A stretch of 64,000 nt of DNA from Pecten maximus (lineage: Eukaryota): NCBI RefSeq assembly GCF_902652985.1, contig NC_047031.1:30070001-30134000 (forward strand). The letters are read 5' to 3'. The notes under the pieces were generated by a model. That model worked only from the letters and a program-made list of their open reading frames with translations, did not search any database and was not told where the DNA came from. This document shows, piece after piece, positions 8,310 to 28,964 of this stretch. How positions within the stretch are numbered: the stretch's first letter is position 1; each line of letters begins with the position of its first letter. The position numbers were made by a program, and so were the translations under genes.

Positions 8310-8649
8310 ACACAAGAACGTGTTTCCGCTTCCGGTTATATTTATAATACATTTTTAGAGCAGAATATTTGTATACAGAGAACTTTTCTGATATCGTACA
8401 TATCTCAGTTAAACAGTCGATAGCCGAAAATGTTATTGGAAAGGTACTTAGAACGATGTAGTGATACTTTATTTATTACGACGGTAAAGGTTTTTATAAA
8501 AATTTAAAGTCTTGTAGTTTTTATGTTGTTTTTAGTGTTTTGGTTTTGAGAACAGCTGATACTTTCCCGGAGAGCATGAAATAATCTCAGAAGTTTCCGG
8601 GAATACACGAAGATGGGTTAATGGTAAAGAATGAAACAGCATAGGTATA

Positions 8650-9140
8650 TGTAACCCTGGTAAATACTAGCCGCAATATACCGCTCGGCTAGGGAGATCT
8701 TCTCTTTAGCTCGATCGGTTGAGCGTAAGACTAATAAACCAGAGGTCCCGGGTTCGACCCCTAGCGGAGGCAGTGATTTAAATTCAATTAATCATGCGCT
8801 CTGTTACATTGGCGCCCATGTAGGGACTCGGGAATGATACTCATCGCTGCTTGCGAAAGCATCGCTGTTACCCCTGGAAAACTCGAGGACGAGTTCTTTC
8901 CTGGAGGGGGAGTATGTAACCCTGGTAAATACTAGCCGCAATATACCGCTCGGCTAGGGAGATCTTCTCTTTAGCTCGATCGGTTGAGCGTTAGACTAGT
9001 AAGCCAGGGGTCCCGGGTTCGATCCCTAGCGGAGGCAGTGATTTAAATTTAATTAATCATGCGCTCTGTTACATTGGCGCCCATGTAGGGACTCGGGAAT
9101 GATACTCATCGCTGCTTGCGAAAGCATCGCTGTTACCCCT
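8650..9140 (+). repeat. Left TRIM block: LTR-A, internal, LTR-B, PBS and partial internal
   Basis: 265-bp period direct repeat. Confidence 0.9.
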
Positions 9141-10092
9141 TATTACCTAAAGTATCCAACTTTTCCAACAACAACTCCATTTTGGTATTCATGTCTTTTT
9201 CAAGAGCATGAAACCTTTCCTCTAATGACTTACATTCAGAACTGGTCACCGACTCACTTTGCACTGCATGCTGTCGGGCCTTAACTCCCTTAGAGGTTGA
9301 AGAAGATGCACTGTCCTTAGAAACAGTGTTCTGTAAGTTGATCTCTTTATCAACCATCCTAATCTCTCTAAGGAGTAGGTCAAAATCTTTGATGGTATCA
9401 TATTTGTGCCTTGTCTGACTTTTTAACCTGTCAGATGACAAAGAGGTCCAAAATTTGTGACGCAGAAGCTCACTTTTTGAGAATGGATCCAAATATCCAT
9501 GTTCTACTGCAACATGCAACATGGACTCAAGGCGACAACCAAAATCTGTTACAGACTCATCAGGCTTTTGAAAAGAATTAAAAAACTCCTGCATTATCAT
9601 GCCATTAGTACTTACATCCCCGAAGAAGTTGTCTAGCTTGGAGAGTACTAAGGTGAGGTCTGGGCTATTTCCCAACGACATCAGCCTCCGACGTGCTGTG
9701 CCGCGCAATGATCTGCGAATCGCCTGAGACAAAAGACTGTCCGTAATTTCTGGGTCGTCTGTGAGGCACTGAACCTCAAAACGCCATTCCCTATAGGAAA
9801 CATCCCCCTTAACCGGAGGATCTTCCCCCGAAAATTGAGGTATCTTGGGAACCTCTCGAGCTTTCACCAAATAGCTCTCATTATTGTCAAGGTCTGGCTC
9901 ACCCCTACAGTAACCAGTATAGGGAGTACTGGTTCCAACAAAACCATCACCAAAACCAGGGATTTTCTCCTTTTTGGGAGTAATATCATATTTCCCTGTG
10001 GCACTCAGAGTTTTAATCATTTCCATTTCTGACATGGTGATGTTCTTGCCATCTGGTTTGTCATTAGCAACAGCTTGCTCATTATCAGTCAT
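9133..10092 (-). CDS. Ty3/Gypsy Gag (PNMA-like capsid), C-terminally truncated
   Basis: PKIPQFSGE..KGDVSYREWRFEV, AIRRSLRGTA, FFNSFQKPDESVTDFGCRLE motifs; no zinc knuckle; stop codon supplied by TRIM internal sequence. Confidence 0.85.
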   Translation of the reverse strand: MTDNEQAVANDKPDGKNITMSEMEMIKTLSATGKYDITPKKEKIPGFGDGFVGTSTPYTGYCRGEPDLDNNESYLVKAREVPKIPQFSGEDPPVKGDVSYREWRFEVQCLTDDPEITDSLLSQAIRRSLRGTARRRLMSLGNSPDLTLVLSKLDNFFGDVSTNGMIMQEFFNSFQKPDESVTDFGCRLESMLHVAVEHGYLDPFSKSELLRHKFWTSLSSDRLKSQTRHKYDTIKDFDLLLREIRMVDKEINLQNTVSKDSASSSTSKGVKARQHAVQSESVTSSECKSLEERFHALEKDMNTKMELLLEKLDTLGNKG

Positions 10093-10353
10093 GCTTACAA
10101 TTACAAATTTAAATAAGATATACCAGTGTAAAACTATAGCACTATAAAATCAACAGTGATAATATACCTACACCCAACACCAGTAAATGATGACCGAGTT
10201 GACCAAGTGATTGGGGATCCCCTACCTACAAGGCACTCGACACCGGGCACCGGTAATAAGTGACGTAGTACATAACACTGAACAAAATATCTACATGTAT
10301 TTAAGAATGGAAACAAATATATGACAGTGAATGGCGTAAATTAAATAATCAGT

Positions 10354-11106
10354 TTACACACAAACTGTCAAAACCGATACAATAAACTTTTTTAGCCAGC
10401 AACGAGCTAACAAAGCCCCAGGATGAATACCATCCTTGTACAGTTTAAAATTGACAGACACCCTATAACTCCCCTGGGCCTTTGTTTTTCTGTACCTGAG
10501 GAGGTCAACTCTCAACAAAGGAGAGGTTACCCCCAAGTCGAAATTCAACGATTTGAGGAAATCATTCAGGAACAAAAGCTGTTCCCTGAGACTAACTTCT
10601 TGATCCTGAAATGACTCAGGCTCAGAATGACCTTTATAACGATTCCACTCTATGATAGAATAGGGTGGTATCTCCACAAATACTAACCTCACAGAGGGAT
10701 ACAAAGAGATAAATTTCTTGAACTCTGTTATATAGTAAAACAAATATGATTGGGCACTCTCAAAAGTTGTGTGACGTAACTCAATAAATGGGCCACGCTT
10801 AGTTGTCAGGTCGCAAGTACCTAACCACACATAGAGAGTAATATGACTGTGTAACTGTACAAGTTTGGGAATATTCCTATGTAGCCAAGGTAGATAATCC
10901 GCAAACCTAGCACCAGCTTTTGAAACAATTTCGAGATCTACACCCAAATTCCTAGCAATATCTAAATTTCTACTCAAAGAAAACCCTTTGCTAGAAGTTA
11001 TTATAATAGGCTTACTGACTAGTTTTACATTTTTACAGTCAATAGGTTTCTCAATATATTTCTGTAATTTTGAATTCATACCAAAGCTGAAATAAATATT
11101 GTACAC
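10354..11106 (-). CDS. SGNH/GDSL hydrolase-like ORF of the Gypsy fragment
   Basis: Block I-like IIITSSKG, block II SKAGA, block III VWLGTCDL, block V DGIHP; intronless, upstream of gag; true start uncertain. Confidence 0.75.
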   Translation of the reverse strand: MYNIYFSFGMNSKLQKYIEKPIDCKNVKLVSKPIIITSSKGFSLSRNLDIARNLGVDLEIVSKAGARFADYLPWLHRNIPKLVQLHSHITLYVWLGTCDLTTKRGPFIELRHTTFESAQSYLFYYITEFKKFISLYPSVRLVFVEIPPYSIIEWNRYKGHSEPESFQDQEVSLREQLLFLNDFLKSLNFDLGVTSPLLRVDLLRYRKTKAQGSYRVSVNFKLYKDGIHPGALLARCWLKKFIVSVLTVCV

Positions 11107-11253
11107 AAGTTACTCACATGCCAATCTTCATACTTTACTGTACTTAAATATTAAACTGTACACTGACTGCAACCAGCCCCTGCCAAACTGGTACCTGGCT
11201 GAAAATCAATACATACTTGTAACTTATCTGTACTGAATGCATATAATCTACAC

Positions 11254-11857
11254 CACAGGTCCTAGCCTCGTCTGTCAATACACCCAATATATAATCAAGG
11301 TCAATAACTCGATCGGCATAGATAACCCACCTAATTTCAGGAAAATTGTAATTGTAGACAAACCATCGAAGATGTGCCGCTGGTAATGGTCTCAATCGAC
11401 AGACAAATGTCCCCCCTTTAATTTGGTATATAATTCACTATATATATAGTCATAGAACTATCACTAGACGTCACAAAACATCGAAAATTAGTCAGATTTT
11501 ATTTAGTCGGACACTCATCTGTCCAGCGAATAACACGAAATGTCTCTAGAGAGTAGCTTCAACAGTACCGCATGTCAGCACTCCAGTCTCTAAACGATGA
11601 AACTTAGGCAGGAAACAAACTTACTTGCACATGTGTTCCTATCTAAAAATTACCCTGTTGCTCGCCTCTGGCTTTTGTTGATAACGCATCGCTGATTTTA
11701 TGCCTGAAGCCGCCATGTTTTCCGCTGTGTAAGAAGTTGTTATCTCAACGCTGATTGGTTCGTTATTTTCAGGTAATTCGACCTTCACATTCGCTAATTC
11801 TCTCGAAACTCTCGGGGTTTTTCATATCACAATCGCTAAACGGAAATCGTATCCGAA
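11254..11857 (+). repeat. Left terminal inverted repeat (604 bp)
   Basis: Reverse complement of 26630-27234. Confidence 0.95.
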
Positions 11858-12120
11858 TTATAACAACAAACAAGCAGAAGCAGAGCAGCATGTGCGATTT
11901 GTATTTCCCATCACTCTACAGGTTTATCAACTTCAAATACGAAATAATTTGTCATAAATCATGACTTTGTATATGTAAAGTACAAAATGTTAGCATCCTT
12001 ACAGTGGAAAAGGTAAGATGCATCGTAAAAACACCTTTTAGTAGCACGGTGCATCTACTGTCCGTGATCTAAATACAATGTATATAGATTTGTACTGTGA
12101 CATGCACACTGTTCTCAAAA

Positions 12121-15100
12121 ATGAATTTAAAACAGAAGGAAGCCTATGATATTGCCATCGCAGTCCACAATTTATACATAGGTGGATCAGCGGGAACTGG
12201 CAAGTCCTTTCTGATTTCAGAAATAGAAAACGGACTCCGTAAAGCAGACAAAAGTGTTCATATCACGTGTACAACAGGGATAGCTTGTGCAAATTTTAGC
12301 AATGCGATGACAATTCACAGATGGGCTGGCATAGATGACGGTCGATATTCATCCAAAGAAATTGCTACATTGATCAAGGAAACCCCCAAACACAGAGACA
12401 CTTTAGAACGATTGATGAAGGCTGACACACTAATAATAGATGAAATAAGCATGCTTTCAGATAAGCTTTTTCAGCAACTGGAGGAAGTATGCAGCCTGAA
12501 AAATCCAGATGTTATCTTTGGTGGTATACAACTTATACTCTGTGGCGATTTCAGACAACTCCCACCTGTTCCTAATGTACAATACAATGATGAAGGTAAC
12601 TTCTGCTTTCAGTCAGAACTATTTCAAACTGCTGTTCCTCATCGTGTTATATTATGTGACATAATCAGGCAACAAGACCAGACCCTTATTAAAGCCATCC
12701 AAGAGGTCAGTGAAGGGGTTGAACTGACAGAAGAATCATTAACCCTTATTAACTCTATGGAGAGGCCATTACCAACAGGGCCTCCTTCTGTTAAGTTGTT
12801 TGCTACTAATAACCTTGTGGATGACTATAACAGAAGGCGTATTTTGAACTGGAGGGGAGAGTTGATTGAGTACTCTGCAGTTGATACTGGGGATAAAAAA
12901 CATCTCTCAAAGATACTGGCTCCACAAAAACTTTGGTTGAAGGAAGGTTGTCCAGTTGTGCTCCTTCGCAATTTTTCCAAAGTTCTTTACAATGGATTGC
13001 AGGGATATATTGTTTCACTGGGGAAAGATGGACCTGTAGTGGACTTCGGATCATTAGGTGTACATAGGATAACAAAAATTAAGTTCACAGGTAAATATAA
13101 GATGCTTAAAGTTGAGATGTCAAATGAAATTCATATGATCTTGATAACAGTTATTCATATGTACTAAAACACTTGTATACATGGGTTTTAATTTGATGAT
13201 AGAATGATCATAATTGCTTAATTATTAATAATTAATCATTACAAAATAATGTATGTTATCATGTATATATAGATTATCCATAATTAAATAACTACTCAGT
13301 TATTCTGTTTTACTTATAAATAGCCCAATCTATTTACACACAATCTGTCAATACAACAATGCCCAAGTTCTATTGAATCTAGTTTGGGAAACAAATATTA
13401 CTGAAAGCCCAAATGTATTGATGACACAGTTCACAGTACTTATAATGATTACAATGTACATACATTATAATGATATTGATTACACATACATTGCATGTAT
13501 TTATGTTCATTTAGTATTTAGTCCTGTCATTGGAAAGAATGTGGCAGAAAGGATGCAGTACCCATTGAAGCTTGCCTTTGCCCTGAGTATCCACAAGGCC
13601 CAAGGAATGACTCTGGATAGGTATTATATGTTCTAAAGAAAAGGAAAAAAAAGTGATCTCATTTCATTTCAAAATATTTTATATCAAGTAATTAGTGTTT
13701 ATACATTTAAATAAAGTTATATAAATAAATGGATTAGACAACAGGCTAAGCCTATAGTGGTCCTTTCCAAGAAATCTGGTTATCTGATTGTTGTAAAAGA
13801 GAAGAAACAATGAGAAATAGAAAGATATGTATTATATAGTATTGCAATACACAAGAAAGATTAAATGCAGAAGGATGTAATTGATCTATATTAGGAGAAG
13901 TTTTTCATTAGAATAAAATGTAGAAAGGATAAAGAAGAAGATAAAGAAAAGGATTTCGAAGTAATAATAAAGAGAGTTCAATCAGATATAAGGAGAAAAT
14001 ATTACATACAAACAAACATACATACATTCACAAAGGCTCATATTCATTCACAACATTCACAAAGGCTCATATTCATTCACACATGTATACTTATTGCTTA
14101 CATATATATACATATGAATAAACATATGTAGGCATGTATTACATAACAATGCTAATCTTTTTTTTCTGTAACTAATTTTTTTATTTTTACATCATAAATC
14201 TTGTAGTTTTCTTTAAGTACTCACTTGAATGAAATAGAATAATTTGATTAATTTCATTTGACTTGTCTCATGGTGTCATGCATATATATGTTAAGTAAAT
14301 ATATTTGTAACTATTAGTTGATTTATGTTGGATTAAATTGATATTTTTCCAAGATAATGTTGCTAAACATTGCGTAGAAAAATGTCTGTATTATAATGTT
14401 TTGGACTACATGCACCTGCTATAAAGTGCTTTTTATAAGTACAATGTAAACATCATTGAATATGATATAATAGTCAGTTAAACTTTACACACTTTATAAA
14501 AATTCTTATTTCAGAGTAGAAGTTGACTGTCGCAACATATTTAAAGCTGGTCAGCTAGGCGTTGCCATGGGAAGAGTTAGGAGTGCGGCTGGGCTTCGTA
14601 TCCTGAATTTCAATCCGAGTGTTTGTATTCAGCAGCCAGATATCGTCCAGACCTTCATTGACACACCGTCTCGAGAACTTGATGACAGTCTACACTGCTG
14701 TAATGCTATCAGGTATTCAAATTGCCATAGATATTATATTTACATCCATTACACTGTCACTGATACACACTACCATATTAATTTCACATTATTTTTGGGC
14801 CTTTGTGGTCCATTGAAATATCCCGACACTTTATCACTAGCCATACATCTTTGGGTTGTGAGTTCAACACATACTTGGTTCAATGTTCAATGTTCAGTGG
14901 TTTTTCTCTGGGTACTCTGGCATTCCTGCATCTCCAAACCAGGCGAGTACTGAAATGACCATGGCTGTTAACAGGACTTCAGAAAAATTATTAAAAAAAA
15001 TTATTTCACGTTAGTGTTGCACTGCACATCTGATGATACAAAATCGTCAAATATACACCATTCACACATCAATATAATTACATTCTGATGATTTTAATTT

Positions 15101-18100
15101 TCTGTGAATCAGCTGGCTTGTCCTGGATTTTCCTTTTTTGGGTCTTCAAGGGATTTGGATTTTGGAACGCGTATGATAAAGCAGCATTGTTTTTGCCAGC
15201 ATTTGCTTTCGTAGATACAATATTTTGACCAAGTATGATATTATTCAGTGTTCTTCGGTATTGAAGGGCATTTGGGTTTGTGTTTGCACCATTGAATGTT
15301 GATCTCTGCTGATTAAACTCATTTTCTATAGCATCTGAATTGACTAAACATGGTGTTATAGATATTGAGTCACTGCCTGATGTAAGCTTAGAACAAAGTT
15401 CTACAAATCCAATTACACATGCCTGCAAATCTTCTATACATTGTGAAGACATTAGCATATGTGCCTTGACCTGTTTTGACAATGACGAATCTGATGTTAT
15501 TGTAGATTTCCAGTCAATAAACCAGCTTAGAGCTTCTTGCAGTACTTTAAGTCTCTCATCATCGTTGGTTTGAATTGGTCTTCTATCCCGAAATATACTT
15601 ATCAGCTTAGACGTTTGTCGAATAAGCTGAATAGCCCCGTTCAACACTTCCCCTTTCTTGCCAAGAGATGCTTGGTACTGAAGAAAGAGATGAAGCATTT
15701 CATTGTTCAGCACTTCTTCAGCGAGGTGGTTTCTCATTTTCATTTGTGAACTTGGAAAGATGTGTTCATTTGTTAGACTTCTGTGGAGAGAGAGGCCATT
15801 TTGTTGGTCCCATCTGTAGCACTCTATCCACATCTGCCATTGAATTTGGGTACCATCTTGAAGTGTCAATAATCTTGTTGACTCCTTTGAAACTCCACTT
15901 TTCATGATATTATTTCTGATTTTCTTGATAGAATGAGAGAAATCCATCATAAAAATAACCGATGTATTGAATCTACATGGACTAGGAACACATACAGATT
16001 CCTCAACCAGGCGATGCTGCAAGTTTATATGCATGAAGGATCTGTTGCATGGTGCTCCATCCATGCAAGTATAGGCAACTTGGAACCCATACATTCCTAG
16101 CCAATCCACAGCATCCCAAAATAAAACATGGAGCTGTGCTGCTTGTACTGTCGTTGATAAAAAATGTGCAAAAGGGAAGCGAAATCCTGTTACACCCAGA
16201 AAAATCAGCTGAAGTACATGAGTTCCTAATGTCTTTTCTTTCTTGCCTGATTTGAGGACCTCACACATGTTTCCTTCTTGACCTAGGTCAGTAAATCCAA
16301 GGAGTTCCACGACGTCACCATTCTTGGTTATCTGAATGTCACTCTGTATAGCCATCTCGTCTAGTATAACACCACCAATCATACCAGCGGAAGAAATATT
16401 TAGCCGCTTTGCCTCACTATACATCCAATGAAATATCTCCTCTTTGAACCCTACTTCATGCTTCACATTGTTTTTATACAAAATCAGTAGGGAAGGTGAT
16501 GGAAGCATTAATATGCCACTGTTTCTTAACATACAGTATCCACTTGGACTTCTTGTGAAGAGTTGAAGGCAAATTGAAATCAATACTTGACTCCATCTTC
16601 TACCACGGGCATCCTTTCCACAGTTATTGGCTTGACTTATTAAAAGTTCAAGCATGTTTTCTGGTGCATTTGGAATTAACTTTTGAAATTGCTCCCTAAG
16701 AGTAAGAGTAAGTTGAGGACTTGAATTTTCTTGTGTGGTATTCTCTGTTTGTGACCCAAATGTCATTTTTTGGCATACTCTACACACTTGAGATCTGTGA
16801 ATGAATCCAATTACTTTGACACAGTTAATTGATCTTAAATGTTTCTCGCATTTGCCATCACTGTCTTGCCATGCATCAAGGATGTGGAAACGACTACATA
16901 CTATATTTTTGTCAATAGCGATTCCTTCACACAGTCTAATTGAAGTCACCTGTTTACAGACCAAATCTAAATCACCAATGAAACTATTATCTATTCCAAT
17001 GCTTTTCAAATCAATGTCTTTCGTCCCAATGACCATCTGCCAGCTTCCGTCTTTATTGAAAGTTATATCTTTATAGACAGTGTTTCCATTTGAAATGTGA
17101 GGTGTTGGATATGACCATTGAATTTTATGTTCTGTTTTTTTAGTCAATATAAAACCAAGTGGTAGGTTAGTTACTAGTTCTTCTGGTGTTATTTTTCTAT
17201 CCCTTTGGAAAGAGTTGGTAGATAATGATAGTCCAATATAAATAGTTTGTTTCAAAGATCCAATATGTTGTCTTGTTTTCTTAACATTGGGGTACAACTG
17301 TGTAACATATCGAGAAAACAGTTGTGGAGATGTAACATCAGTTTCTTTATAGCCAAGATCCGTTATTTCCAAGCGATATGTCTCAAACAAAACATTTGCC
17401 GATACAGTGCCTTCTTCTATCAATCTTGAAAACATCCTGAAAATAGAAAGATGAGCAATTTAGTTAATAAGCCTTTAATAATAACCTACAAACTGTAAAC
17501 ACATTTGTACTGTTGGTCTTTTTATGTTTACTTTATATTTATATCATACACACCTTAACTCCTTCACACAAATATATATACACACAAATAAACGTCATGA
17601 CATATTCGAGACTGTATATAATGTGTTATCTATCCCCGATATATTTGATTTCAATTGTATATACAGTACGAGGAGGGTGATTTGGTACTCAAACGCTCAC
17701 AGCGCGTTTGCGCCCGTCGAGCGATGGGGATTAAAACCCCGCTGCAATCCCGCCGTAATCCCGCGCAAGCGATGTCGCTGTGATCCCGCTCACGCAGCGA
17801 TTCCGCTCTGACAAGGCAGCAACCCCGCTCAGCCAGCGATTCAGCTCCGGAAGGTCTGCAAACCCGCTCAGACAGCGATCCCGCTCCGGCGGGCCAGCAA
17901 ACCCGCTCAGCCAGCGATCCCGCTCCGGCGGGCCAGCAAATCCGCTCAGCGAGCGATCCCGCTCCCGTAACATGGACACAAGAAATCCTGCAATCTTTTT
18001 TTTTTTAATATAACGATGAATAAGAAGGCACTCATATTTATTTCATCAGAAACGTTCGCAGATTGTAATGTAATGTTTACAAAATGTGTTTCGTATCCAC

Positions 18101-18797
18101 TTGCTTGACTTGTTTTCTGCTTGTGTAAGTATCAAATCAGGAAAAATTTGGTTGCGCGAGTAATGAACTTTAGTTTAACAAAAAATGCATTTTATGGATC
18201 TTAAAGTATAATCATAGAAAAAGGTTAAACACAAAGTTATTTTTTAAACAACATCTTGTATCTAAAAATGTTCATACGGAGAGTTAGCGTAGTGCAAAAT
18301 GCAAATGTACATCTGGTTTTAATTAGATTGAGTACTCTGATATATTTCTAAGTTGTTTTGTCTTTTTGGTGTACATTGTACATACAGTACATGTACATGT
18401 TAGCTGGATCGTATGAAAGAGGAACATGACGCAATTTGGCCTGATTCGACCTAAAGGTGACCATTTTCAAATAAAAGGTAGTTCTCAGATTTGATATTCG
18501 CTGGTGTCAATAACATGGGGGGAAACATAGTTGTTGATGAAATATTTAAGTTTGGATGTCAATTAGACAATTAGTTTCTTTGATATAGGCAGGATTTGAA
18601 ATGTGGTCGAATTATACGATCGCCAGCCGTTATGTAGCCATGCCCGTTTGAGTTACCTACAAATGTATTCAATGCTCGGTAAAAGTTGTAGTATGCACAA
18701 TGCACGCGCAATGTACAGGGTACCGAGACAGTTATTCGACGGCTGGCGAGTGGCAGTATACACTGATACATGTAGGCTTAGTTTGTTGTCCAACCCA

Positions 18798-18836
<39 letters not shown>

Positions 18837-21800
18837 TATGTAATTTTCTGAATGAAATATTTGAATTGAATTGTGGTCATCCTTATCATTTACGTAAGCT
18901 GAGCCGTAAACTTATTAATCTGTATATCACCCATTTGATAGGTAACCAGTCTTGACATTTTTCTTAAAATGAAAACACATTCGTTTTAAACAACCGGACC
19001 CAAAACGTATGTCTCATATATACATTATACATATACATGTGTATGTGTTTGTTGAAACAAATACATGTACATGATTTATTACGGATAATGTTGTTGTTAT
19101 GATAAGTATTGTGTGTATATATAAATATAAGTAAATTGTATATGCACGTTTGGGTAAAATATCCAAGTTCGTCCTTATTAAAGTAATATGAAGATCAATA
19201 AATAAGTGTATCACGATATCGATCTACTGTATATAGGCTATGCCTGATGTCTAATCTTATTGACTTAACATCTCGTCAATAAGATGTGTTGAAATTAAAA
19301 ATATGGATACTGAGTGTTCTATTTTCTTACGAAACCTGACATAAATAGTTACCCTGGTTTTTTTATTTAAACATATTTTTATTGTAATTTATATTATATA
19401 AGAGATTTGGCAAAAACCACCTTTCCCGACACAAGTATACATGAAAAAATACAGCAAGATGGCATAATATAATATTTTAATATAATATTATTTTTAACAT
19501 TTTTACAAATTGGTTTGAGCGGGAGAGAGAGAGGAGGGGGAGTATATTTAAAGATATAGTGAAAGTAATTGCTCTTATTTCAATACATTAAACCAATACG
19601 TACATATTATAAATGTATAACTTTCAACAATACAAATTACGTACCTAATTTAAATCTGAAATATATATATGATTTAAGAATGATTAATACAACTATCATC
19701 GCATACGGATTTAATGGGTTTTACTTCCGCTATTATGGCCTCAAAAGGAAAACGGCAGGTGCCTTATTCTAAAAGACCTAAATGTAAGAGGTGAGATACA
19801 GGTAAACAGGGAAACATGGCGCATACCGCTAAATCCTTATGTAACAACATTCTGCCCGCAGGTAAAAAAAAACCGTAGGGGTCCGATGGGGGTCACTGCG
19901 ATACAGGTATACTCGCTATTGTAATCAAAATATGTGATTGGCAGATGTTAACAGCAGGTGAAAACATTTCTATAACGGTAACTACACTGTACACGACCGG
20001 TATTTGTCCTGTGTATAGAGGATTTATCTATATCACATTGATTAACTCCAATCATGATTTGTAAATGACGCGATTTTAACCACGTGGTCTCCATACAGTT
20101 TTATTTGGATACTATAACACATGGAAATGTGTTACATGAGGAACATTAACATTGTATCACACGTACATATATATGAATATTCATAGGATTATTTTACATA
20201 CACGTAATCAAAGAAGAGATTTTTTTTAGAAAAAAAAAGACAAACCATTTAGAACTTCGTTTATAATTATGAACTTTTAACAGACCTTTTAGTTTAGTTT
20301 TATTTGGATTTGAGCGGTAATAATTTAGAATAATACAGATAATGATACTCATCTCCTACATTTTCTGAAGACAGGGTTCATATCTTCTCCTGAAAATCTT
20401 TGTTACCTACCAGTTTCAATTGAAAATTTCAATTACATGTACGTACACTGTGTATCAAATACAGTTACAGTTAATCTAATCTCAGGCTTCATCGGACATA
20501 AAATGGACAATGGTCAATAGCTCGGTGAAGGACGAAATACTTCAAATTGTTTGGGTGTTGGGTCTTGATAATAATGGTGACTTTCGCATAGTCAGTACGT
20601 ATTTTTTTTACTTCCGAAATAAAAAGGACCGGAAATATTCCCATCTTGTCGATATAATTGATTAAAATATGTTTAAAATGTGTTTTTGTTGACGTTTTTA
20701 TCACATACACATGATAGATGACACCAATGTATTGTTTTTCTCACAATAAAGAAAGAATATTGGACTACACACACAATCATTCTGTGGTCTATATAGTTTA
20801 AACTGTATTTTATTTGACAATTTCCATTTAACAGTATATATACAATATAAGATATACATACATACATGTACATACATACTATAATGCTCTGTCTTGTAAT
20901 CAAAGATCGCACTACATGTATTTCTTTGTCGGCAAAAAGAGATTGGAGAGGCAATCGATTATCCTTTACAAAAGTGTTCGATATCTCACATAATAATATT
21001 GTACCAGACTGCTAAAATGGTAACACTCTTTCAATTATTTATTAGTCTTGTGGGTATACATCTCATCAACATCATACGATTACAAAAAATATAATTCAAG
21101 TCAGCTCGAGTAGAGCATTGCACTTGTGACGATTTTTTTTCTGAGAACATAGTAATTAAATGATTAGCTACTATAGTTGGGAAACTATTAGCACTGATTT
21201 CGATATCTACCGGTAATATGCATGTAAGTGTATGTCCGTGATATAATTATCCATGCAAGAGATGTCCCCGATGGACACATAAATAATGATAGTAATAAAA
21301 ACACAATATTTTTAGGCCGTGTATTTAAAACTTCGAAATGTTCAAATAATTGTAAAGTTTATGAATCTTACTACAGAAATTCAAAGATAATTTTCTCAAA
21401 CAGACATGTTGCTAGCTAAATACTTCAAATGACTATGTGGAAATAAGTCGAGATCAAAATAACGAGCCCCTTATATGTGGCCTCTCCGAGGTCATGCACA
21501 AAACGCCATCTATACAAAGGTCAGCTAAATCAGAATTGTAATAATGCTGCCTTGGACATGTGGCTCGTTGTCCACTATTAAAATGGTTACCGGATTGAGC
21601 ACATTTCCGTGTTCCCCATATCCCACTCGAGATTCACAAAAATTCTGACCAAGATCCGACCGTCCTAGGTACTCTAGAAATGATCACAAAACCGCCTTTT
21701 GACCCGTCTCCAAGTTCCGTAAGAATGAAATAATGCTACTGCGGACACTTGGTTCATTGTCCACCATTAACCAAAAAGATTACATTTTCGTTTTTCCAAA

Positions 21801-24748
21801 GAAGACAGTCACAAGTTAGTAGTCACAGGATACATTTACAATGTATTGACTCAGCTCCTAACACTAAATGACGACTATATCCAATATTACTGGATTTATG
21901 ACTCGTGAGTGTTCTTGCACATGCATGAAAAAAGTCTATTTAAACTTTAATAATTACAATATTTCCCTACAAATAGTTTTTATCAAAATGGGCTGAAATC
22001 AAGTACACTGTCATACTGTTCATCATTGTAGATATTATTCAACTTATAACAACGATTGCATTTGCAATGCATTACACATATGAATTTGTATCTCATGGTA
22101 ATTAAAGTATAATTAATCGACATCAGGCTGTTGAAAGTCTACCGTCATTACTGATTGAGCGGGTCCTATTCAATTCCGCTCGAGCGGGTCCGCTACAAGT
22201 CCGCTCGAGCGGGCCCGCTACAAGCCCACCCGGCGAGCGGGTCCGATACTAGTCCGCTCAAGCCCGCTACAAAACCGCTCAAGCCCGCTGCGAACCCGCT
22301 CAAGCCCGCGCCCGAACCTGCTGCCAATCCGCTCGAAGCCCGCTCAAATCCCGCTCAAATCCCGCTGCAAACCCGCGCAAATTCTGAGCGGAGGGCTGCG
22401 CGGGTCAACGCTCTGTGAGCGTTTGAGTACCAAATCACCCTCCTCGTACTGTATATATATGTAAGTTAATTTGTCATATCAATGTGTACATATACATTAT
22501 ATTTGTCTGTATTTCTTACCACCTGTTGTTACTAAGGAGAAGACTTAGATAGGCTATCCTATTGACTTTCTTTCTGTGTTAATAAAGTTTGTTGATATTG
22601 AAGTTGAATAAAGAAATGATAAAAGTTTGTATGAACTTAAACATAACTTTTGGTGTATATATAGAAATGTTATTTTTTTAAACATATATACCCCTGTAAC
22701 CTTCAAAATGGTGCAAGGTCATTTCTTTCATCATACATTATCCATAAACAAGGATTTAATGCATTTTTGTTAAGAGATTTTAATGGAAAATGTTCAGCTG
22801 GTAGACCTTGGGGAGTCAGACATTTACTGTAAAATTTATAATAATTATCACCAATTTTTATTCTTTTTAATTTTTCAGACAGGTGTCCATGGATTGGCAG
22901 ACCATATTTGGGCCAGATGACGACGACGATTTCATTGTTGATGGGAATCTCGGATGTGAAGGTGAAGCAGAAACAGAAGAGGAAGATGAAGATACTTTTG
23001 ATGATGACTTCAACAAAATCATTGTATCTGACAGTGTATTCTCAACTGATGAACTATCTGAGTATACTTTGCCGGCTTCATTTGACCCAGGGGCTCTCCT
23101 TCAAACAATGCGATCAAAGCATGAAGCCACAGCTATACAAACGGAATCAAATGAATTGATTGACCATTTGCTGAAGTTTCATGTTGAGAGGGTTGCAGAC
23201 TTCTGCAAAAAACAATTCTTAGTTTTGTCTGCATTTATGGAAGACCTCAACGTCACTGCCTCTGGTTCAGTAAAGTCTGAGGCTCTTTGTCATTTTTATG
23301 AAAAATGCAATCGGCATCAAACAAGCCAGGAATACCTCTTGACTGCCATGATACTGTTTCAAGACCTGCCCATACATTCTGATGCCCAAGCCCACATCTG
23401 CTACAAGTTGGCAGTGGAGGTAAGGAAGTTCTTGCTTCAGGAGAAGGTTGACCTCTTCCAGACAACCAAGAAATCCACTTACCAGAGGTTTGTGACCAGT
23501 GCATCAAAAGCGAGGATCCGTTATGTTGGTGGGTATTGTATCAGTAAGGTCAGATATCGCAATCTGCAGCTTCAGAAGACAAGAGCAACCAAAGTCAGCA
23601 TTGAAGACCAGCAACAGTATGAGGAATCAACAATGGCAATCAACATACTGGATGCTTTAAGGGAGAATGAGGTTGTGTTGGAAAAACATTCTGCTCTTCC
23701 TGAAACATTGGTTGATGTCATCAGGAAACAAAATGTAAGCAGGGGGTTAACTCAGATCAGAGATGAACTATTCTTATTTTTCATGAAGCTGTGTGAACAT
23801 TGTCTTACAAACCTGACTGATCAACATCTCCATCAACACGGTCAACATCTCCACAGTCAATGCTTTAATGTAATCATGGGGAATATTCAACTTTACGAAC
23901 AGTTTCTGAAAGTTGTCAAGACAGTGCCTATGAAAAGTTTTTCTTTGTATGAAAATACATGTGATGTGGGTTCATCAGTCGTTGAAGACATTCTCAATAA
24001 ACTCACATTGGAAGTCTCTGTGACCGAGTGTATTTACAAGGATATTGTTGAGAAGTTTGTCATGGTGATGCTTAATCAATTTAGGAAAGACCTGCTTCAA
24101 GCATTTTCAGTGGAGAAAACATTAGCTCACAGAAAGCAAATTTTGATCAAGAAATCAAAACAAAGTGATATTCAGGGAACAGTCAGCTTTGATAGTATCA
24201 GTAAAGATAACTCCATAGGTAAAGATATGTCACACAATTTACTGAAAGGTTTACTTCTCCAACAGAAAGATGTTTTGAAGTCATTTACCAAGACCAACCT
24301 CCAAACATTATGCAAGGCATACTCTCTGAAGGTATCAAGGGTTTATACAAAAGCAAAATTAATGCAGGACTTGAAAGCAAGGATACTCGCCAGTAATGCC
24401 ATGCCAAATCCAAACGTCATTCACCATGACACAGAATCCAAGATGGCAGAGACAACTACTCTTTCAGAACCTCAACCAGGACCAAGTTCTGCAGCAGATT
24501 CTTTTGAGGACACTCAGAAAGAACCTAAAGGTACCTCGACTGAAGAGGATGAAGCAATGCTTCAAAAAGATCCTGAAGAAGAGGAAGTCTGCAAAGTTTG
24601 CAATAAAGTTGGTAGTGTATTGTATTGGATATACTGTGAAAGCTGCTCTAAATGGCTACACAGGAACTGTGCAGGGCTTCGTTCAAAAAAAAAGTGGGAC
24701 AATGCAAGACAAGAAGGAGTAAAGTTTTTCTGTAATGACTGTCAATAA
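12121..24748 (+). CDS. PIF1-family SF1B helicase fused to acidic tract, P-transposase-CTD-like region, SAP-like motif and PHD finger (~1047 aa, 4 exons)
   Basis: Exons 12121-13090, 13515-13620, 14515-14712, 22879-24748; GT-AG, phases 1,2,2 all in frame (3144 nt). Motifs GSAGTGKS, TIHRWAGI, IIDEISML, GDFRQLPPV, LKEGCPVVLLRN, QYPLKLAFALSIHKAQGMTLD, GQLGVAMGRVRS; C-terminal C4HC3 PHD. Confidence 0.8.
14795..14980 (+). mobile_element. Degraded SINE inside the P element
   Basis: GGTTTTTCTCTGGGTACTCTGGCATTCC and AAATGACCATGGCTGTTAACAGGAC match the SINE at 1-150. Confidence 0.6.
15078..17435 (-). CDS. P-element/THAP9-type DDE transposase (785 aa exon)
   Basis: ILDEMAI (D1), MDGAPCN (D2), DFSHSIKKIRN (DxxH..K..RN), KMRNHLAEEVL, SDAIENEFNQQR (E); acceptor TTTCTATTTTCAG one base before the ATG; no THAP domain seen. 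Confidence 0.9.
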   Translation of the reverse strand: MFSRLIEEGTVSANVLFETYRLEITDLGYKETDVTSPQLFSRYVTQLYPNVKKTRQHIGSLKQTIYIGLSLSTNSFQRDRKITPEELVTNLPLGFILTKKTEHKIQWSYPTPHISNGNTVYKDITFNKDGSWQMVIGTKDIDLKSIGIDNSFIGDLDLVCKQVTSIRLCEGIAIDKNIVCSRFHILDAWQDSDGKCEKHLRSINCVKVIGFIHRSQVCRVCQKMTFGSQTENTTQENSSPQLTLTLREQFQKLIPNAPENMLELLISQANNCGKDARGRRWSQVLISICLQLFTRSPSGYCMLRNSGILMLPSPSLLILYKNNVKHEVGFKEEIFHWMYSEAKRLNISSAGMIGGVILDEMAIQSDIQITKNGDVVELLGFTDLGQEGNMCEVLKSGKKEKTLGTHVLQLIFLGVTGFRFPFAHFLSTTVQAAQLHVLFWDAVDWLGMYGFQVAYTCMDGAPCNRSFMHINLQHRLVEESVCVPSPCRFNTSVIFMMDFSHSIKKIRNNIMKSGVSKESTRLLTLQDGTQIQWQMWIECYRWDQQNGLSLHRSLTNEHIFPSSQMKMRNHLAEEVLNNEMLHLFLQYQASLGKKGEVLNGAIQLIRQTSKLISIFRDRRPIQTNDDERLKVLQEALSWFIDWKSTITSDSSLSKQVKAHMLMSSQCIEDLQACVIGFVELCSKLTSGSDSISITPCLVNSDAIENEFNQQRSTFNGANTNPNALQYRRTLNNIILGQNIVSTKANAGKNNAALSYAFQNPNPLKTQKRKIQDKPADSQKIKIIRM
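17664..22451. mobile_element. Non-autonomous TIR element (Tc1/mariner-like ends), 4788 bp
   Basis: 39-bp perfect TIR CAGTACGAGGAGGGTGATTTGGTACTCAAACGCTCACAG, TA on both flanks, GC-rich CCCGCTC subterminal repeats, no long ORF. Confidence 0.85.
22879..24748 (+). CDS. Last exon of the PIF1 fusion gene (acidic, YVGGY region, SAP-like, PHD)
   Basis: 621-aa ORF preceded by acceptor TTTTTCAG; CKVC...CESC..WLH..C...C..C PHD at ~24590-24745. Confidence 0.85.
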
Positions 24749-24849
24749 ATTAGATTTAGAAATGTTAAAACTACCATTATTTCATAACAAATCAAACATA
24801 TTTTTCTGGATTCCAAATTGTGTGTGATATATATATATATATATATATA

Positions 24850-25575
24850 TAGTGTCACACTTTCTCAGTGTGTGTAATAAAGGAACAGTGTCATACTTCT
24901 AGTGTGTGTAATGGAGGAACAGTGCCACACTTCTAGTGTGTGTAATGGAGGAACAGTGCCACACTTCTTCAGTGTGTGTAATGGAGGGACAGTGCCACAC
25001 TTATAATGTGTGTAATGGAGGAACAGTGCCACACTTATAATGTGTGTAATGGAGGAACAGTGCCACACTTCTTCAGTGTGTGTAATGGAGGAACAGTGCC
25101 ACACTTCTAGTGTGTGTAATGGAGGAACAGTGCCACGCTTCTTCAGTGTGTGTAATGGAGGAACAGTGCCACACTTCTTCAGTGTGTGTAATGAAGGGAC
25201 AGTGCCACACTTATAATGTGTGTAATGGAGGAACAGTGCCACACTTATAATGTGTGTAATGGAGGAACAGTGCCACACTTCTTCAGTGTGTGTAATGGAG
25301 GAACAGTGCCACACTTCTAGTGTGTGTAATGGAGGAACAGTGCCACGCTTCTTCAGTGTGTGTAATGGAGGAACAGTGCCACACTTCTTCAGTGTGTGTA
25401 ATGAAGGGACAGTGCCACACTTATAATGTGTGTAATGGAGGAACAGTGCCACACTTATAATGTGTGTAATGGAGGAACAATGCCACACTTCTTCAGTGTG
25501 TGTAATGGAGGGACAGTGCCACACTTATAATGTGTGTAATGGAGGAACAGTGCCACATTTCTTCAGTGTGTAATG
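24850..25575. repeat. 34/36-bp minisatellite with 210-bp higher-order unit, preceded by (TA)n
   Basis: GTGTGTAATGGAGGAACAGTGCCACACTT + ATAAT/CTAGT/CTTCAGT variants. Confidence 0.95.
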
Positions 25576-26629
25576 AAAGAGCTGTGGTATACTTCCTCAT
25601 TGTAAGTAGATAGTTTCACATGCATGTACACTCACTTCTTGTGTTTAATAGATCTAGGGATGCAATATGGTGTAGCTAGTGTCATACTTCTTAAATGGTA
25701 TGTAATATATCTGATTTACACTAACACTATGTATATTTTCATATTGAACATTCAATCAATCTTTAATTTTTTTTCCATTTTATTATTTGTTCTGTATTGC
25801 TGCTGGTATTTACAGTTTCATAATGAACCTCCTGCTCTTGTTGAATTTTATCATTGGATGGGTTTTATTTCTCATTGCAATAATATTATATATATTGTTT
25901 CAAATGTTACAGTTTTGGTGTAAGCTGTTGATCAATGGATGTCTCATAACTAGTACTGTATATATGTTGATCAAGCTTATGGTGTGTCACATAAATCAGC
26001 TGGACAATCTTCATAAGTCACATGATCTGTACATGTTCAACAATGGTTGTCACATGACTTGTTTTCACATTGCGGCTTACATATCTTGCAGACTATTTTC
26101 TAGTTGTGTTTATATTTGGTATTATGGTCCCCATGAGGGAATAGACTATCTCCTCATGTTCATGAGTCTAACTAAAAGATGCGGTCCTCCGACAGATCTT
26201 GTTTTCAATTTTAAGTTCAGATAAAATTAAACTGCTGAACCATAAAACATGCTGTGCTATTATCAAATAAATAACACCAGTTAATTACTAAAAATTTAAA
26301 ATATACATAAAAAATCACTATGATAGCTATGGCCTGTCATAGGTCTAAACAATTCCCATCGGCCCTTTAATTAAGTTTGCTATTAAGTAACATAGTAATG
26401 ATGCATCTATATGTAATCAATCAAAGACATATAGTCATATATTTTTTGTCTGTAATATAATTTTTAACTCATGATTAATATCTGAAAATTCTTAACTGTC
26501 TCATGCCTATGATATAATGGTTTCCATAAATAATTAAGAATTACCAAGTGACAACTGCCATCCTTAAAGTTCGTCTGCTAAAAAAATTCCGCTAAATAAC
26601 ACCATTCGAAAAGTCCGCCAATTACATTG

Positions 26630-27234
26630 TTCGGATACGATTTCCGTTTAGCGATTGTGATATGAAAAACCCCGAGAGTTTCGAGAGAATTAGCGAATGT
26701 GAAGGTCGAATTACCTGAAAATAACGAACCAATCAGCGTTGAGATAACAACTTCTCACACAGCGGAAAACATGGCGGCTTCAGGCATAAAATCAGCGATG
26801 CGTTATCAACAAAAGCCAGAGGCGAGCAACAGGGTAATTTTTAGATAGGAACACATGTGCAAGTAAGTTTGTTTCCTGCCTAAGTTTCATCGTTTAGAGA
26901 CTGGAGTGCTGACATGCGGTACTGTTGAAGCTACTCTCTAGAGACATTTCGTGTTATTCGCTGGACAGATGAGTGTCCGACTAAATAAAATCTGACTAAT
27001 TTTCGATGTTTTGTGACGTCTAGTGATAGTTCTATGACTATATATATAGTGAATTATATACCAAATTAAAGGGGGGGGCATTTGTCTGTCGATTGAGACC
27101 ATTACCAGCGGCACATCTTCGATGGTTTGTCTACAATTACAATTTTCCTGAAATTAGGTGGGTTATCTATGCCGATCGAGTTATTGACCTTGATTATATA
27201 TTGGGTGTATTGACAGACGAGGCTAGGACCTGTG
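26630..27234 (-). repeat. Right terminal inverted repeat (605 bp)
   Basis: Reverse complement of 11254-11857; ends ACCTGTG followed by TSD. Confidence 0.95.
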
Positions 27235-27242
27235 ATCTACAC

Positions 27243-27944
27243 ATAGAACATTAAATCCTATACACATAAGAACCAAAACACACATAACATTACATAATAT
27301 AGGCACAAGTAGCCGATAAACACATAGTTGTCAAAGTGTCTGTTTCAGTCGTGAATTTGTAAGTAACATGAAAGCAAGTGGGAATTTGTAGATGGTTAAA
27401 TAGACGAATAGTAATAGAAAAATGAAAAGATGGAAAGTACGCTACGCGCTAAGAAAAGTCGAATTTATGAATATGACAAAGCCGAAACGCGAAGCCTGGC
27501 AAGCTGACAATACCTCAGCTCGCTCACAATCTCCTACCTACGGTCACCCTACATACTTACGCACTCCTCCCGAACTAATTAGACAACACAAAATACAATT
27601 ACACAAATGTCAAAAAAGTCACAAAATCGCCATCTCTCTCAGATTCCGTCGACGAGGAGTCCGGATCTCCACCACTAAGCGAACAAAATCCTTCTCCACC
27701 GCACATCCATGATGTTTATGCCGGAAGTCAGGTTCTTTACCGCTGGGCTCGTTCGACAAGGAACATAATGTTACCGTCTGACATTGTGTAGTCGCCGCCT
27801 GGTTTCAATACTGTATGATTATCAAACCACGTTGGGCGCCATTTTGTCACCGGGGTGTGGAAATATTACCAGAGACAGAAGTAGTTCGTTTGATTGGTTA
27901 ATATCAGATCATAAAACCAGGCTTCTATATGGCGACAATTCAAC
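27243..27944 (-). mobile_element. Gypsy 5' region: LTR 3' remnant, tRNA-Lys PBS, leader (continues at 11253-9141)
   Basis: Minus strand ...GTGACA AAA TGGCGCCCAACGTGG (PBS 27827-27841), complementary to the tRNA-Lys(CTT) 3' end; co-oriented with SGNH and gag ORFs. Confidence 0.75.
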
Positions 27945-28388
27945 TCTTTCCTGGAGGGGGAGTATGTAACCCTGGTAAATACTAGCCGCAATATACCGCT
28001 CGGCTAGGGAGATCTTCTCTTTAGCTCGATCGGTTGAGCGTTAGACTAGTAAGCCAGGGGTCCCGGGTTCGATCCCTAGCGGAGGCAGTGATTTAAATTT
28101 AATTAATCATGCGCTCTGTTACATTGGCGCCCATGTAGGGACTCGGGAATGATACTCATCGCTGCTTGCGAAAGCATCGCTGTTACCCCTGGAAAACTCG
28201 AGGACGAGTTCTTTCCTGGAGGGGGAGTATGTAACCCTGGTAAATACTGGCCGCAATATACCGCTCGGCTAGGGAGATCTTCTCTTTAGCTCGATCGGTT
28301 GAGCGTAAGACTAATAAACCAGAGGTCCCGGGTTCGACCCCTAGCGGAGGCAGTGATTTAAATTCAATTTATCATGCGCTCTGTTACA
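27945..28388 (+). repeat. Right TRIM block: PPT, LTR-B, internal, LTR-A
   Basis: Direct repeat of the 8650-9140 units. Confidence 0.9.
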
Positions 28389-28964
28389 TATATATTTACA
28401 TGATCCTCGTTATCAAGACAAATACAGTAAAGCTGTAATGGGAAATAACGAAATAAAAGCTGAAAAATATTGTACTAATCGCCAGAAATATTCTGACGTC
28501 ATTAATATGTTTAACATCAATTGACAATATAGGTCGTGTGGATTCTTATAGAAAACTAATCCTACACTGTGTGAATTATTGAAAAGGTTTCTTGGTGGTT
28601 TAATCACATTCTATTTCCTCTAAAATTCGCAGGGTGACTGTTATCGGGTCACCGTAACGTAAATATGATGTAATCTACAGTGGACAGCGTGGTCAGTCAA
28701 GTCGTGGTCATCTCGAGTCCAGGTGGAGATAACCTGCGATATTAACTTCACGAACTCGCGCACCTGCTAAAATAACCCGATCAAGTGGACAACGATGTCT
28801 GTCGTTATCATCCAACTCTCTTATAACAGGAGTTAACAGCGTTTATCATTTCTGTCATAGAGCCAGTATATATGGTTCAGTTTAGTTTCGAATATCAAAA
28901 CATTTGTTTTGAAATCACTTAACGATCCGACTTGACAGGCTCCAGGGCTGTTTATCTTTTCGAT

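What the first reader, a model, noticed from the sequence alone, without database searches (positions are those of the whole stretch)
9133..27944. TRIM has captured the antisense 5' end of a Gypsy element with open SGNH and gag ORFs
Seen: removing the P element and one TSD joins 9141-11253 to 27243-27944 into ~2.8 kb of minus-strand Gypsy (LTR remnant, Lys PBS, leader, SGNH, gag). It replaces ~19 bp (GGAAAACTCGAGGACGAGT) of the TRIM internal region, keeping TRIM PBS and PPT intact, and gag takes its stop codon from TRIM sequence. Both PBSs start TGGCGCCCA. Inference: either a 3.75-kb gag-carrying semi-autonomous TRIM, a recombination footprint identifying the TRIM's helper Gypsy, or an antisense source that silences the helper.
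Basis: partly seen in the sequence, partly recalled or inferred. Interest (0 to 1): 0.7.

Follow-up and report, generated by a model that had tools for sequence, protein, structure and literature searches.

The report
One-off chimera exposes LTR introns
A 2.8-kb piece of a young jumping gene sits backwards, at this one place only, inside a tiny tRNA-derived retrotransposon array; it lacks exactly an intron-like segment that this group of jumping genes carries in its terminal repeats, so it likely passed through spliced RNA, and it is likely a dead accident rather than a new mobile element.

Summary
Anatomy confirmed: 2,815 bp of antisense Gypsy (LTR end, PBS, SGNH-fold ORF, gag) lies in a four-LTR TRIM array and is split by a later P-type element. 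The TRIM is a Helenus (tRNA-like LTR, 4-bp TSD).

The gag junction occurs once in the assembly; gag is antisense, promoterless and 48 residues short; T-runs would stop Pol III read-through. The TRIM PBS matches tRNA-Lys(TTT), the donor's matches Lys(CTT), and many sister families fit as helper equally well.

Such LTR introns, just upstream of the poly(A) signal, recur across this Gypsy clade: sibling copies lack them precisely in 10 families, and 12 of 50 scored elements are intron-less. A second intron-less fragment of the donor family has a 328-bp flanking duplication and no TRIM.

Verdict: a one-off microhomology-joined chimera from an RNA-passed donor; whether it formed on the chromosome or in a particle is open. 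Splicing is not shown in RNA. This scan noted LTR introns before in another animal genome (e1-8148826).

The parts
8646..8649 (+). Left copy of the array's 4-bp target-site duplication (TATA)
   Evidence: right copy 28389-28392
8650..8808 (+). Helenus LTR1, haplotype A (159 bp, TGTAAC...GTTACA, tRNA-Thr-like core)
   Evidence: haplotype A only here and in LTR4
8809..8914 (+). Internal region 1 (106 bp): PBS 8810-8830 for tRNA-Lys(TTT), PPT at its end
8915..9073 (+). Helenus LTR2, haplotype B
   Evidence: identical to LTR3
8895..9140 (+). Left copy of the 246-bp identical repeat flanking the insert (PPT end + LTR B + first 67 nt of internal region); 9137-9140 is the 4-nt microhomology with gag
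9133..10092 (-). Truncated gag (319 aa; parent 367 aa), PNMA domain; stop codon from TRIM sequence
10354..11079 (-). Open SGNH/GDSL-fold ORF (241 aa from ATG)
9141..11253 (-). Gypsy piece, 3' part (leader end, SGNH, gag); 1 mismatch in 2,113 bp to the nearest full-length copy
11254..27234 (.). P-type DNA transposon inserted later into the Gypsy leader; 605-bp TIRs; 8-bp TSD at 11246-11253 and 27235-27242
27243..27944 (-). Gypsy piece, 5' part (LTR remnant, PBS, leader)
27827..27841 (-). Gypsy PBS, 15/15 to tRNA-Lys(CTT)
27845..27944 (-). LTR remnant = donor LTR 416-442 joined to 555-626; the 112-nt GT-AG segment is absent at the joint 27917/27918
27945..28190 (+). Right copy of the 246-bp repeat; 27945-27946 is the 2-nt microhomology with the donor LTR
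27965..28123 (+). Helenus LTR3, haplotype B; tRNA-like stretch 28015-28087
28124..28229 (+). Internal region 3, identical to internal region 1
28230..28388 (+). Helenus LTR4, haplotype A, 2 differences from LTR1

Best explanation
This is a single-copy chimera in which a 2.8-kb piece of a young Gypsy element, lacking exactly the intron-like segment of its LTR and so likely copied from spliced RNA, was joined backwards into a Helenus tandem array through 4-nt and 2-nt microhomologies, likely by a template-switching repair event at this chromosomal site, and it is likely immobile. Shown: anatomy, parent family, microhomologies, 246-bp identical flanks, precise absence of the GT-AG segment, uniqueness in the assembly, later P insertion. 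Inferred: (a) the array came first as a multimer whose outer LTRs were made alike by reverse transcription; (b) the donor was a spliced RNA, or a cDNA or provirus with an intron-less LTR, a common product in this clade (12 of 50 scored elements); (c) a 3' end in the TRIM internal region primed on the donor in gag, copied towards the LTR and rejoined the TRIM one unit back (246-bp duplication) or, equivalently, 19 nt further on in a four-LTR array; (d) the unit cannot be transcribed end to end by Pol III and its ORFs have lost the donor's U3. The one-off, immobile, intron-less-donor part I put near 0.9; the chromosomal setting near 0.55.
For: Left junction 1 match; intron-less joint 2 matches against 14 for the unspliced acceptor; haplotypes A and B 2 matches each, all in this window. 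The deletion is GTAAGT...TAG; 11 of 71,270 possible 50-199-nt deletions in this LTR have such ends. The same precise loss is seen between sibling LTRs in 9 further families. The only other intron-less piece of the family (C1:23.42 Mb) is also a fragment with a long flanking duplication, 328 bp, in non-TRIM DNA. Outer-alike, inner-different LTRs also occur in an uninterrupted trimer (L032: 1 against 6-7 differences). LTR1 and LTR4 differ at 2 of 159 sites while the 246-bp flanks differ at none. 15 runs of 4 or more T lie on the TRIM strand of the left half, none in the TRIM itself.
Against: Timing does not separate array from insert: p = 0.15, pooled p = 0.06-0.37; the p = 0.014 test used the gag side alone and I do not rely on it; one of the two LTR1/LTR4 differences is a common family variant (10 of 47 LTRs). 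The C1 fragment ends exactly at the LTR terminus, so it looks integrase-made on one side, unlike this insert, and is only a partial analogue. The trimer pattern is clear in 1 of the 4 complete trimers examined (L032, L033, L039, L047). No uninterrupted A-I-B-I-A array exists in the assembly. No RNA contig showed the joint (0 joints in 26 contigs laid from 4 runs only guessed to be RNA). No raw or long read was available for the junctions.
Confidence: 0.55

Rival explanations
1. Capture during reverse transcription in a shared particle: plus-strand synthesis on a Helenus multimer jumped onto Gypsy RNA (or minus-strand synthesis onto Gypsy cDNA), came back, and the 3.75-kb product integrated once. 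The donor family would then be at least one helper of this Helenus.
For: Both partners are substrates of the same kind of machinery: LTR start 10 of 11 letters alike, same PPT end, 4-bp TSDs. The donor is RNA-passed. One clean TATA TSD bounds the whole unit. PBS type flips between Lys(TTT) and Lys(CTT) within family F096, so primer type is no barrier. Deletions with inserted fragments during retroviral copying are recalled from Pathak and Temin 1990 (not read here).
Against: TRIM PBS is Lys(TTT), donor PBS Lys(CTT); at least 7 other families among 40 loci read carry a Lys(TTT) PBS, three at 18/18; PPT and LTR ends are clade-wide. LTR1 and LTR4 differ at 2 sites while the inner repeats do not (not significant). 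Antisense capture needs an unusual switch.
Confidence: 0.33
2. A mobile, gag-carrying semi-autonomous TRIM of 3.75 kb (TR-GAG-like).
For: Size under 4 kb, LTRs, PBS, PPT and TSD intact, both ORFs open.
Against: One copy; gag antisense to the TRIM, 48 aa short, without U3; T-runs at 9161 and 9196; open frames are expected at 99.9% identity to the parent; now split by 16 kb.
Confidence: 0.03
3. A retained antisense source that silences the donor family.
For: The insert is antisense to a likely Pol III unit and near-identical to young copies.
Against: Pol III would stop within about 20-60 nt of the insert; the locus is very young, so no sign of retention can be read; the donor family has LTR pairs 99.5-100% alike, i.e. 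recent insertions.
Confidence: 0.05
4. Misassembly joining two repeats.
For: Both partners are repeats; no bridging contig was among the 32 pieces shown of 15,530.
Against: Microhomology at both joints, private LTR haplotypes arranged A-B-B-A, private variants in the insert, a nested element with its own TSD, and one outer TSD.
Confidence: 0.04

Closest known systems
Helenus / TRIMp3 (Kojima 2024, PMC10886601; parts 1-4 of 6 read, supplements not opened)
   Same: tRNA-like LTR core with box A and B motifs, Thr-type anticodon position, short internal region with PBS and PPT, tRNA-Lys primer, 4-bp TSD, tandem arrays; Gypsy helper inferred there from PBS likeness.
   Different: No cargo capture appears in the parts read. 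Whether this family is among the 51 bivalve families named there was not checked.
TR-GAG (Chaparro 2015, PMC4350172; abstract and section list seen)
   Same: Under 4 kb, LTR-bounded, carries gag but no pol.
   Different: TR-GAGs are families with one gag ORF; this is one copy with two antisense ORFs and a truncated gag.
Aberrant one-ended proviruses with long host duplications (PMC5041404; passages read)
   Same: Truncated element DNA flanked by duplications of hundreds of bp; fits the C1 fragment well.
   Different: The window insert has no LTR terminus at either joint, so integrase made neither.
Spliced LTR transcripts of maize elements (bioRxiv 10.64898/2026.05.08.723830; passages read)
   Same: Canonical introns inside LTRs.
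   Different: There shown in RNA as LTR-contained transcripts; here seen in DNA as precise loss in integrated copies of an animal Gypsy clade, at a fixed place before the poly(A) signal.
Foamy virus R-region splice donor (Schrom 2013, PMC3694450; abstract read)
   Same: A splice donor inside the LTR upstream of the poly(A) signal.
   Different: Here donor and acceptor both lie in the LTR, and whole-intron loss is inherited; no functional test.
GDSL/SGNH ORFs of bdelloid LTR elements and of CR1/L2/RTEX LINEs (PMC5408684; passages read)
   Same: SGNH-fold accessory ORF in a retroelement.
   Different: In the bdelloid LTR elements it is ORF3; here it precedes gag, and block I reads TSSKG and block III GTCD.

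Membership tests
Helenus (TRIMp3) | Two LTRs with PBS and PPT, unit under about 1 kb | tested here: met
   159-bp LTRs, 106-bp internal region; monomer 424 bp
Helenus (TRIMp3) | tRNA-like sequence in the LTR with box A and B motifs | tested here: met
   Rfam tRNA model aligns end to end at 28015-28087 with TAGCT and GGTTC in place, but only 17.5 bits, E 0.78, below gathering; ARAGORN calls no gene
Helenus (TRIMp3) | 4-bp TSD in animals | tested here: met
   TATA/TATA
Helenus (TRIMp3) | PBS complementary to a tRNA 3' end | tested here: met
   21/21 to genomic tRNA-Lys(TTT)
Helenus (TRIMp3) | Transcription by Pol III | not testable with these tools
   No raw RNA reads; no T4 run in LTR-I-LTR
TR-GAG | Under 4 kb with LTR features | tested here: met
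   3,750 bp without the P element
TR-GAG | Single ORF coding for gag | tested here: not met
   Two ORFs, both antisense to the LTRs; gag truncated
TR-GAG | Multi-copy family with signs of mobility | tested here: not met
   One copy
Ty3/Gypsy (donor) | LTRs, PBS, PPT, short TSD, gag and pol | tested here: met
   8.86-8.88-kb copies, 626-bp LTRs, 4-bp TSDs, PNMA-type gag, long pol frame
Ty3/Gypsy (donor) | Domain order PR-RT-RH-IN and RT tree placement | not tested
   Order read by eye from the translation; no domain scan or tree was run on pol
SGNH hydrolase | Fold | tested here: met
   Model pLDDT 90.5; Foldseek 88 matches at E<=0.001, top hits GDSL/SGNH, E 2.4e-07
SGNH hydrolase | Catalytic S, G, N, H residues | tested here: inconclusive
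   DGxHP invariant in 13 of 13; SSKG in all 10 rows that reach it; block III GTCD lacks N; activity untested
U2-type spliceosomal intron in the LTR | GT-AG ends with T-rich tract | tested here: met
   Acceptor before the poly(A) signal in 14 of 18 family representatives, 1.9 expected from shuffles; 3 of the 4 misses proved to be intron-less copies
U2-type spliceosomal intron in the LTR | Precise loss after passage through RNA | tested here: met
   10 families
U2-type spliceosomal intron in the LTR | Spliced reads in RNA | tested here: inconclusive
   Contigs only, low cover, no joint
P-element superfamily (nested element) | TIRs, 8-bp TSD, TNP-like transposase | tested here: met
   PF21787 E 3.8e-12; THAP domain and tree not tested

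The most novel reading that the evidence does not exclude
The LTR intron of this Gypsy clade is a built-in poly(A) switch and copy filter: U1 on the donor blocks the poly(A) signal in the 5' LTR, the acceptor 8-36 nt before the signal promotes it in the 3' LTR, and about one new copy in four loses the intron during reverse transcription and leaves few or no descendants, which is why the intron persists across families whose gag proteins are only 34-67% identical. The window insert is one such intron-less product, and it may have been caught in a particle shared with Helenus.
Probability: 0.35. Interest if true: 0.75.

Novelty: new variant of a known kind. Interest (0 to 1): 0.45.

Why it matters
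The chimera itself matters little: one young, immobile copy. It does warn that PBS likeness, the main published clue to the helpers of animal Helenus, cannot single out a family here, because many families fit and PBS type can flip within a family. The by-product matters more. Introns are expected to vanish from elements that copy through RNA; this clade keeps one or two in every LTR while losing them exactly in about a quarter of copies. That gives a natural system, readable from assemblies, for asking how identical LTRs choose between starting and ending a transcript and where minus-strand transfer happens.

Tried and rejected
Sequencing runs: no RNA holder listed. Four runs guessed to be RNA gave 26 contigs on the parent 5' region, no joints, and cover of LTR positions about 261-626 including the unspliced donor and acceptor; uncovered parts carry no weight. 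Four DNA runs were swamped by TRIM contigs and no junction-bridging piece was shown. 'Insert starts at the transcription start': not shown; an Inr-like TCATTC with a DPE-like word at +28 lies at LTR 336-341, about 75 nt upstream, but such pairs appeared in only 2 of 9 families. 'Only intron-less copies integrate aberrantly': rejected; 8 of 12 intron-less elements have a perfect 4-bp TSD, 2 have one mismatch, 2 none (flanks read). L137 (5' LTR intron-less, 3' LTR not) has no TSD and may be a recombinant of two copies, so I draw nothing on reverse transcription from it. Exon-copy 'self-renewing' intron layout of the fungal notes: absent, shared suffix 1-2 nt in 7 of 7 introns. My first strict intron scan found 2 of 18 and was too strict; one search used looser rules set after seeing the sequences, with a shuffle control. 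The shared-site count was dominated by offset windows and was ignored. Single-sequence fold (pLDDT 43), PDB sequence searches and Pfam did not identify the SGNH ORF; two homologues with stops were dropped from the alignment. The protein Atlas was unavailable. Searches found no paper on inherited LTR introns in bivalve or other animal Gypsy elements; one search listed none on an SGNH ORF upstream of gag; subscription journals and Repbase were not searched.
Full report
Observation. The window is G000:C17:30070001-30134000. Self-comparison shows four 159-bp LTRs (8650-8808, 8915-9073, 27965-28123, 28230-28388), a 246-bp identical repeat (8895-9140 = 27945-28190) and 605-bp inverted repeats at 11254 and 27234. 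The array is bounded by TATA on both sides, the nested element by ATCTACAC. The two minus-strand pieces are contiguous in three full-length copies of 8.86-8.88 kb with 626-bp LTRs 99.5-100% alike within a copy, and partly present in a fourth. The gag-side piece differs from the nearest copy at 1 of 2,113 sites, the leader side at 3 sites and one gap in 676. The event is therefore very young, and open frames need no selection to explain them. The nested element came last, since its TSD lies in the Gypsy leader and the parent copies lack it.

The TRIM. Its LTR holds a tRNA-like stretch with box A and B motifs and AGT at the anticodon position (weak score). With 4-bp TSD, PPT and a tRNA-Lys PBS this meets the description of bivalve Helenus in PMC10886601. 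Tandem arrays are common among the copies fetched. LTR1 and LTR4 share four variants, LTR2 and LTR3 are identical, and neither haplotype occurs elsewhere in the assembly. Outer-alike, inner-different is what a multimer moved as a unit should show, and one uninterrupted trimer shows it clearly (L032).

The joints. The gag joint has 4 shared letters, the LTR joint 2. Neither is an LTR terminus, so integrase made neither. Gag loses 48 residues. A stop within three codons arises at 38 of 265 possible positions.

Mobility. The left junction pattern, with one mismatch allowed, has one match. The intron-less joint, 27 nt from the right junction, has two, the second outside any TRIM. On the TRIM strand the left half has 15 runs of four or more T, the first 21 nt inside the insert, while the TRIM has none; by established Pol III behaviour read-through would stop there. 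The donor's U3 is gone. The semi-autonomous and antisense readings have little left.

Helper. Genomic tRNA genes settle the PBS question: the TRIM matches tRNA-Lys(TTT) over 21 letters, the donor tRNA-Lys(CTT) over 15, and the cross-matches are 9. A gag search scored 150 of 414 candidates; of 40 loci read upstream, 26 had a Lys PBS and at least 7 families were of the TTT type, three at 18/18. PPT and LTR ends like the TRIM's recur across families. Against my own argument, family F096 has two TTT copies and one CTT copy, so primer type does not exclude the donor. The helper is likely in this clade; the chimera does not name it.

The missing segment. The insert joins donor LTR position 442 to 555; the 112 letters between start GTAAGT and end in a T-rich tract and TAG, 15 nt before ATTAAA. 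Eleven of 71,270 possible deletions have such ends. The family has 14 matches to the unspliced acceptor and 2 to the joint. The second joint belongs to a 1.34-kb 3' fragment that ends exactly at the LTR terminus and is flanked by a 328-bp duplication, like the one-ended proviruses of PMC5041404. The two differ at two LTR sites, so they are separate products.

The clade. An acceptor-like site precedes the poly(A) signal in 14 of 18 family representatives against 1.9 expected (rules set after seeing the sequences). I then fetched 60 elements by gag position. Ten could not be scored (7 without a usable 5' end, 2 interrupted, 1 without a sibling). Of 50, 38 carry the segment and 12 lack it. The first 40 included four copies already seen to be intron-less; in the last 20, picked without knowing their state, the count is 4 of 19. 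For five families (F068, F081, F084, F400, F095) the intron is inferred from motifs alone. Exact GT-AG loss between siblings was seen in F072 (131 nt), F070 (172), F069 (142, twice), F083 (359), F080 (144), F087 (372, exact in the 3' LTR, one changed letter in the 5'), F088 (289 and 316), F092 (198 and about 230) and F096 (177), plus the donor family: ten families. Intron interiors are unrelated between the 7 families compared, while position is kept, 8-36 nt before the signal. In the three families with two intron-less copies these are not each other's nearest relatives (in F096 the three distances are nearly equal), a weak sign of independent losses. Eight of 12 have perfect TSDs, so intron-less cDNA integrates normally.

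Mechanism. Shown: structure, uniqueness, donor, precise loss. Inferred: passage through spliced RNA, which could be splicing in the 5' R, or splicing in the 3' R copied after early strand transfer; the start site is unknown, so the insert need not be the RNA's 5' end. Inferred: a template switch at microhomologies. I favour the chromosome over the particle narrowly (0.55 against 0.33), on the C1 analogue and the two outer-LTR differences, neither decisive. For the intron's persistence the likeliest cause is selection through poly(A) control, as with the foamy virus donor (PMC3694450, abstract); this is untested.

SGNH ORF. An alignment of 13 natural copies gave a confident model (pLDDT 90.5) matching GDSL/SGNH hydrolases. 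SGNH ORFs are known in other retroelements (PMC5408684, passages).

Novelty. Helenus, TR-GAG, aberrant insertions and spliced LTR transcripts in maize (passages) are in print. Searches found no account of inherited LTR introns with recurrent exact loss in an animal Gypsy clade; PMC12786077 (passages) and PMC6934838 (part 1 of 5) added nothing on it. The scan's own notes hold a like finding in another animal genome (e1-8148826) and exon-copy variants in fungi; I saw them after searches had established the pattern, they are unchecked, and the exon-copy layout is absent here. Unopened supplements of PMC10886601 may already name this Helenus family. Verdict: the chimera alone about 0.25; with the LTR-intron result 0.45; new variant of a known kind.

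Noticed in passing
G000:C1:23421345-23422685 (L028/L029): 1.34-kb 3' fragment of the donor family with an intron-less LTR ending exactly at its terminus, a 162-nt internal deletion at a 7-nt repeat, and a 328-bp host duplication.
   Followed up: yes
L149-L160 (families F088, F092): LTRs with two introns each; intron-less copies L152 and L158 lack both; L151 lacks the second exactly and the first inexactly.
   Followed up: partly
L146-L148, L113, L123, L158: PBS sequences vary within families towards a full tRNA match; family F096 has both Lys(TTT) and Lys(CTT) PBS copies.
   Followed up: partly
window 11254-27234: 16-kb P-type element with 605-bp TIRs carrying a PIF1 helicase ORF (12088-13167 +), a transposase-like ORF (15078-17459 -) and a PHD ORF (22871-24748 +).
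   Followed up: no
L011-L018, L048-L053: Many donor-family insertions lie in or near tandem repeats (30/60, 44/88 and 110 bp units), hinting at a site preference or at purging elsewhere.
   Followed up: no
L015/L016 (C10:37.74 Mb): A donor copy whose SGNH-gag part is replaced by about 4.9 kb with a 1,008-aa ORF and a frame that by eye resembles a tyrosine recombinase, possibly a DIRS-like element.
   Followed up: no
L105 / L067 (C17:24.76 Mb): An older donor-family copy with a Lys(TTT)-primed Gypsy of another family nested in it.
   Followed up: no
L068-L106: The SGNH ORF upstream of gag was found in 21 of 40 loci, all from families with gag about 50% or more identical to the donor; none in the more distant ones.
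   Followed up: partly
window 43670-47326 +: Single-exon 1,218-aa Toll-like receptor ORF (LRRs and TIR).
   Followed up: no
window 52627-55492 +: Somatomedin-B-like and secretin-family 7TM frames, probably one adhesion GPCR gene.
   Followed up: no
window 42449-42897: Perfect 225-bp tandem duplication.
   Followed up: no
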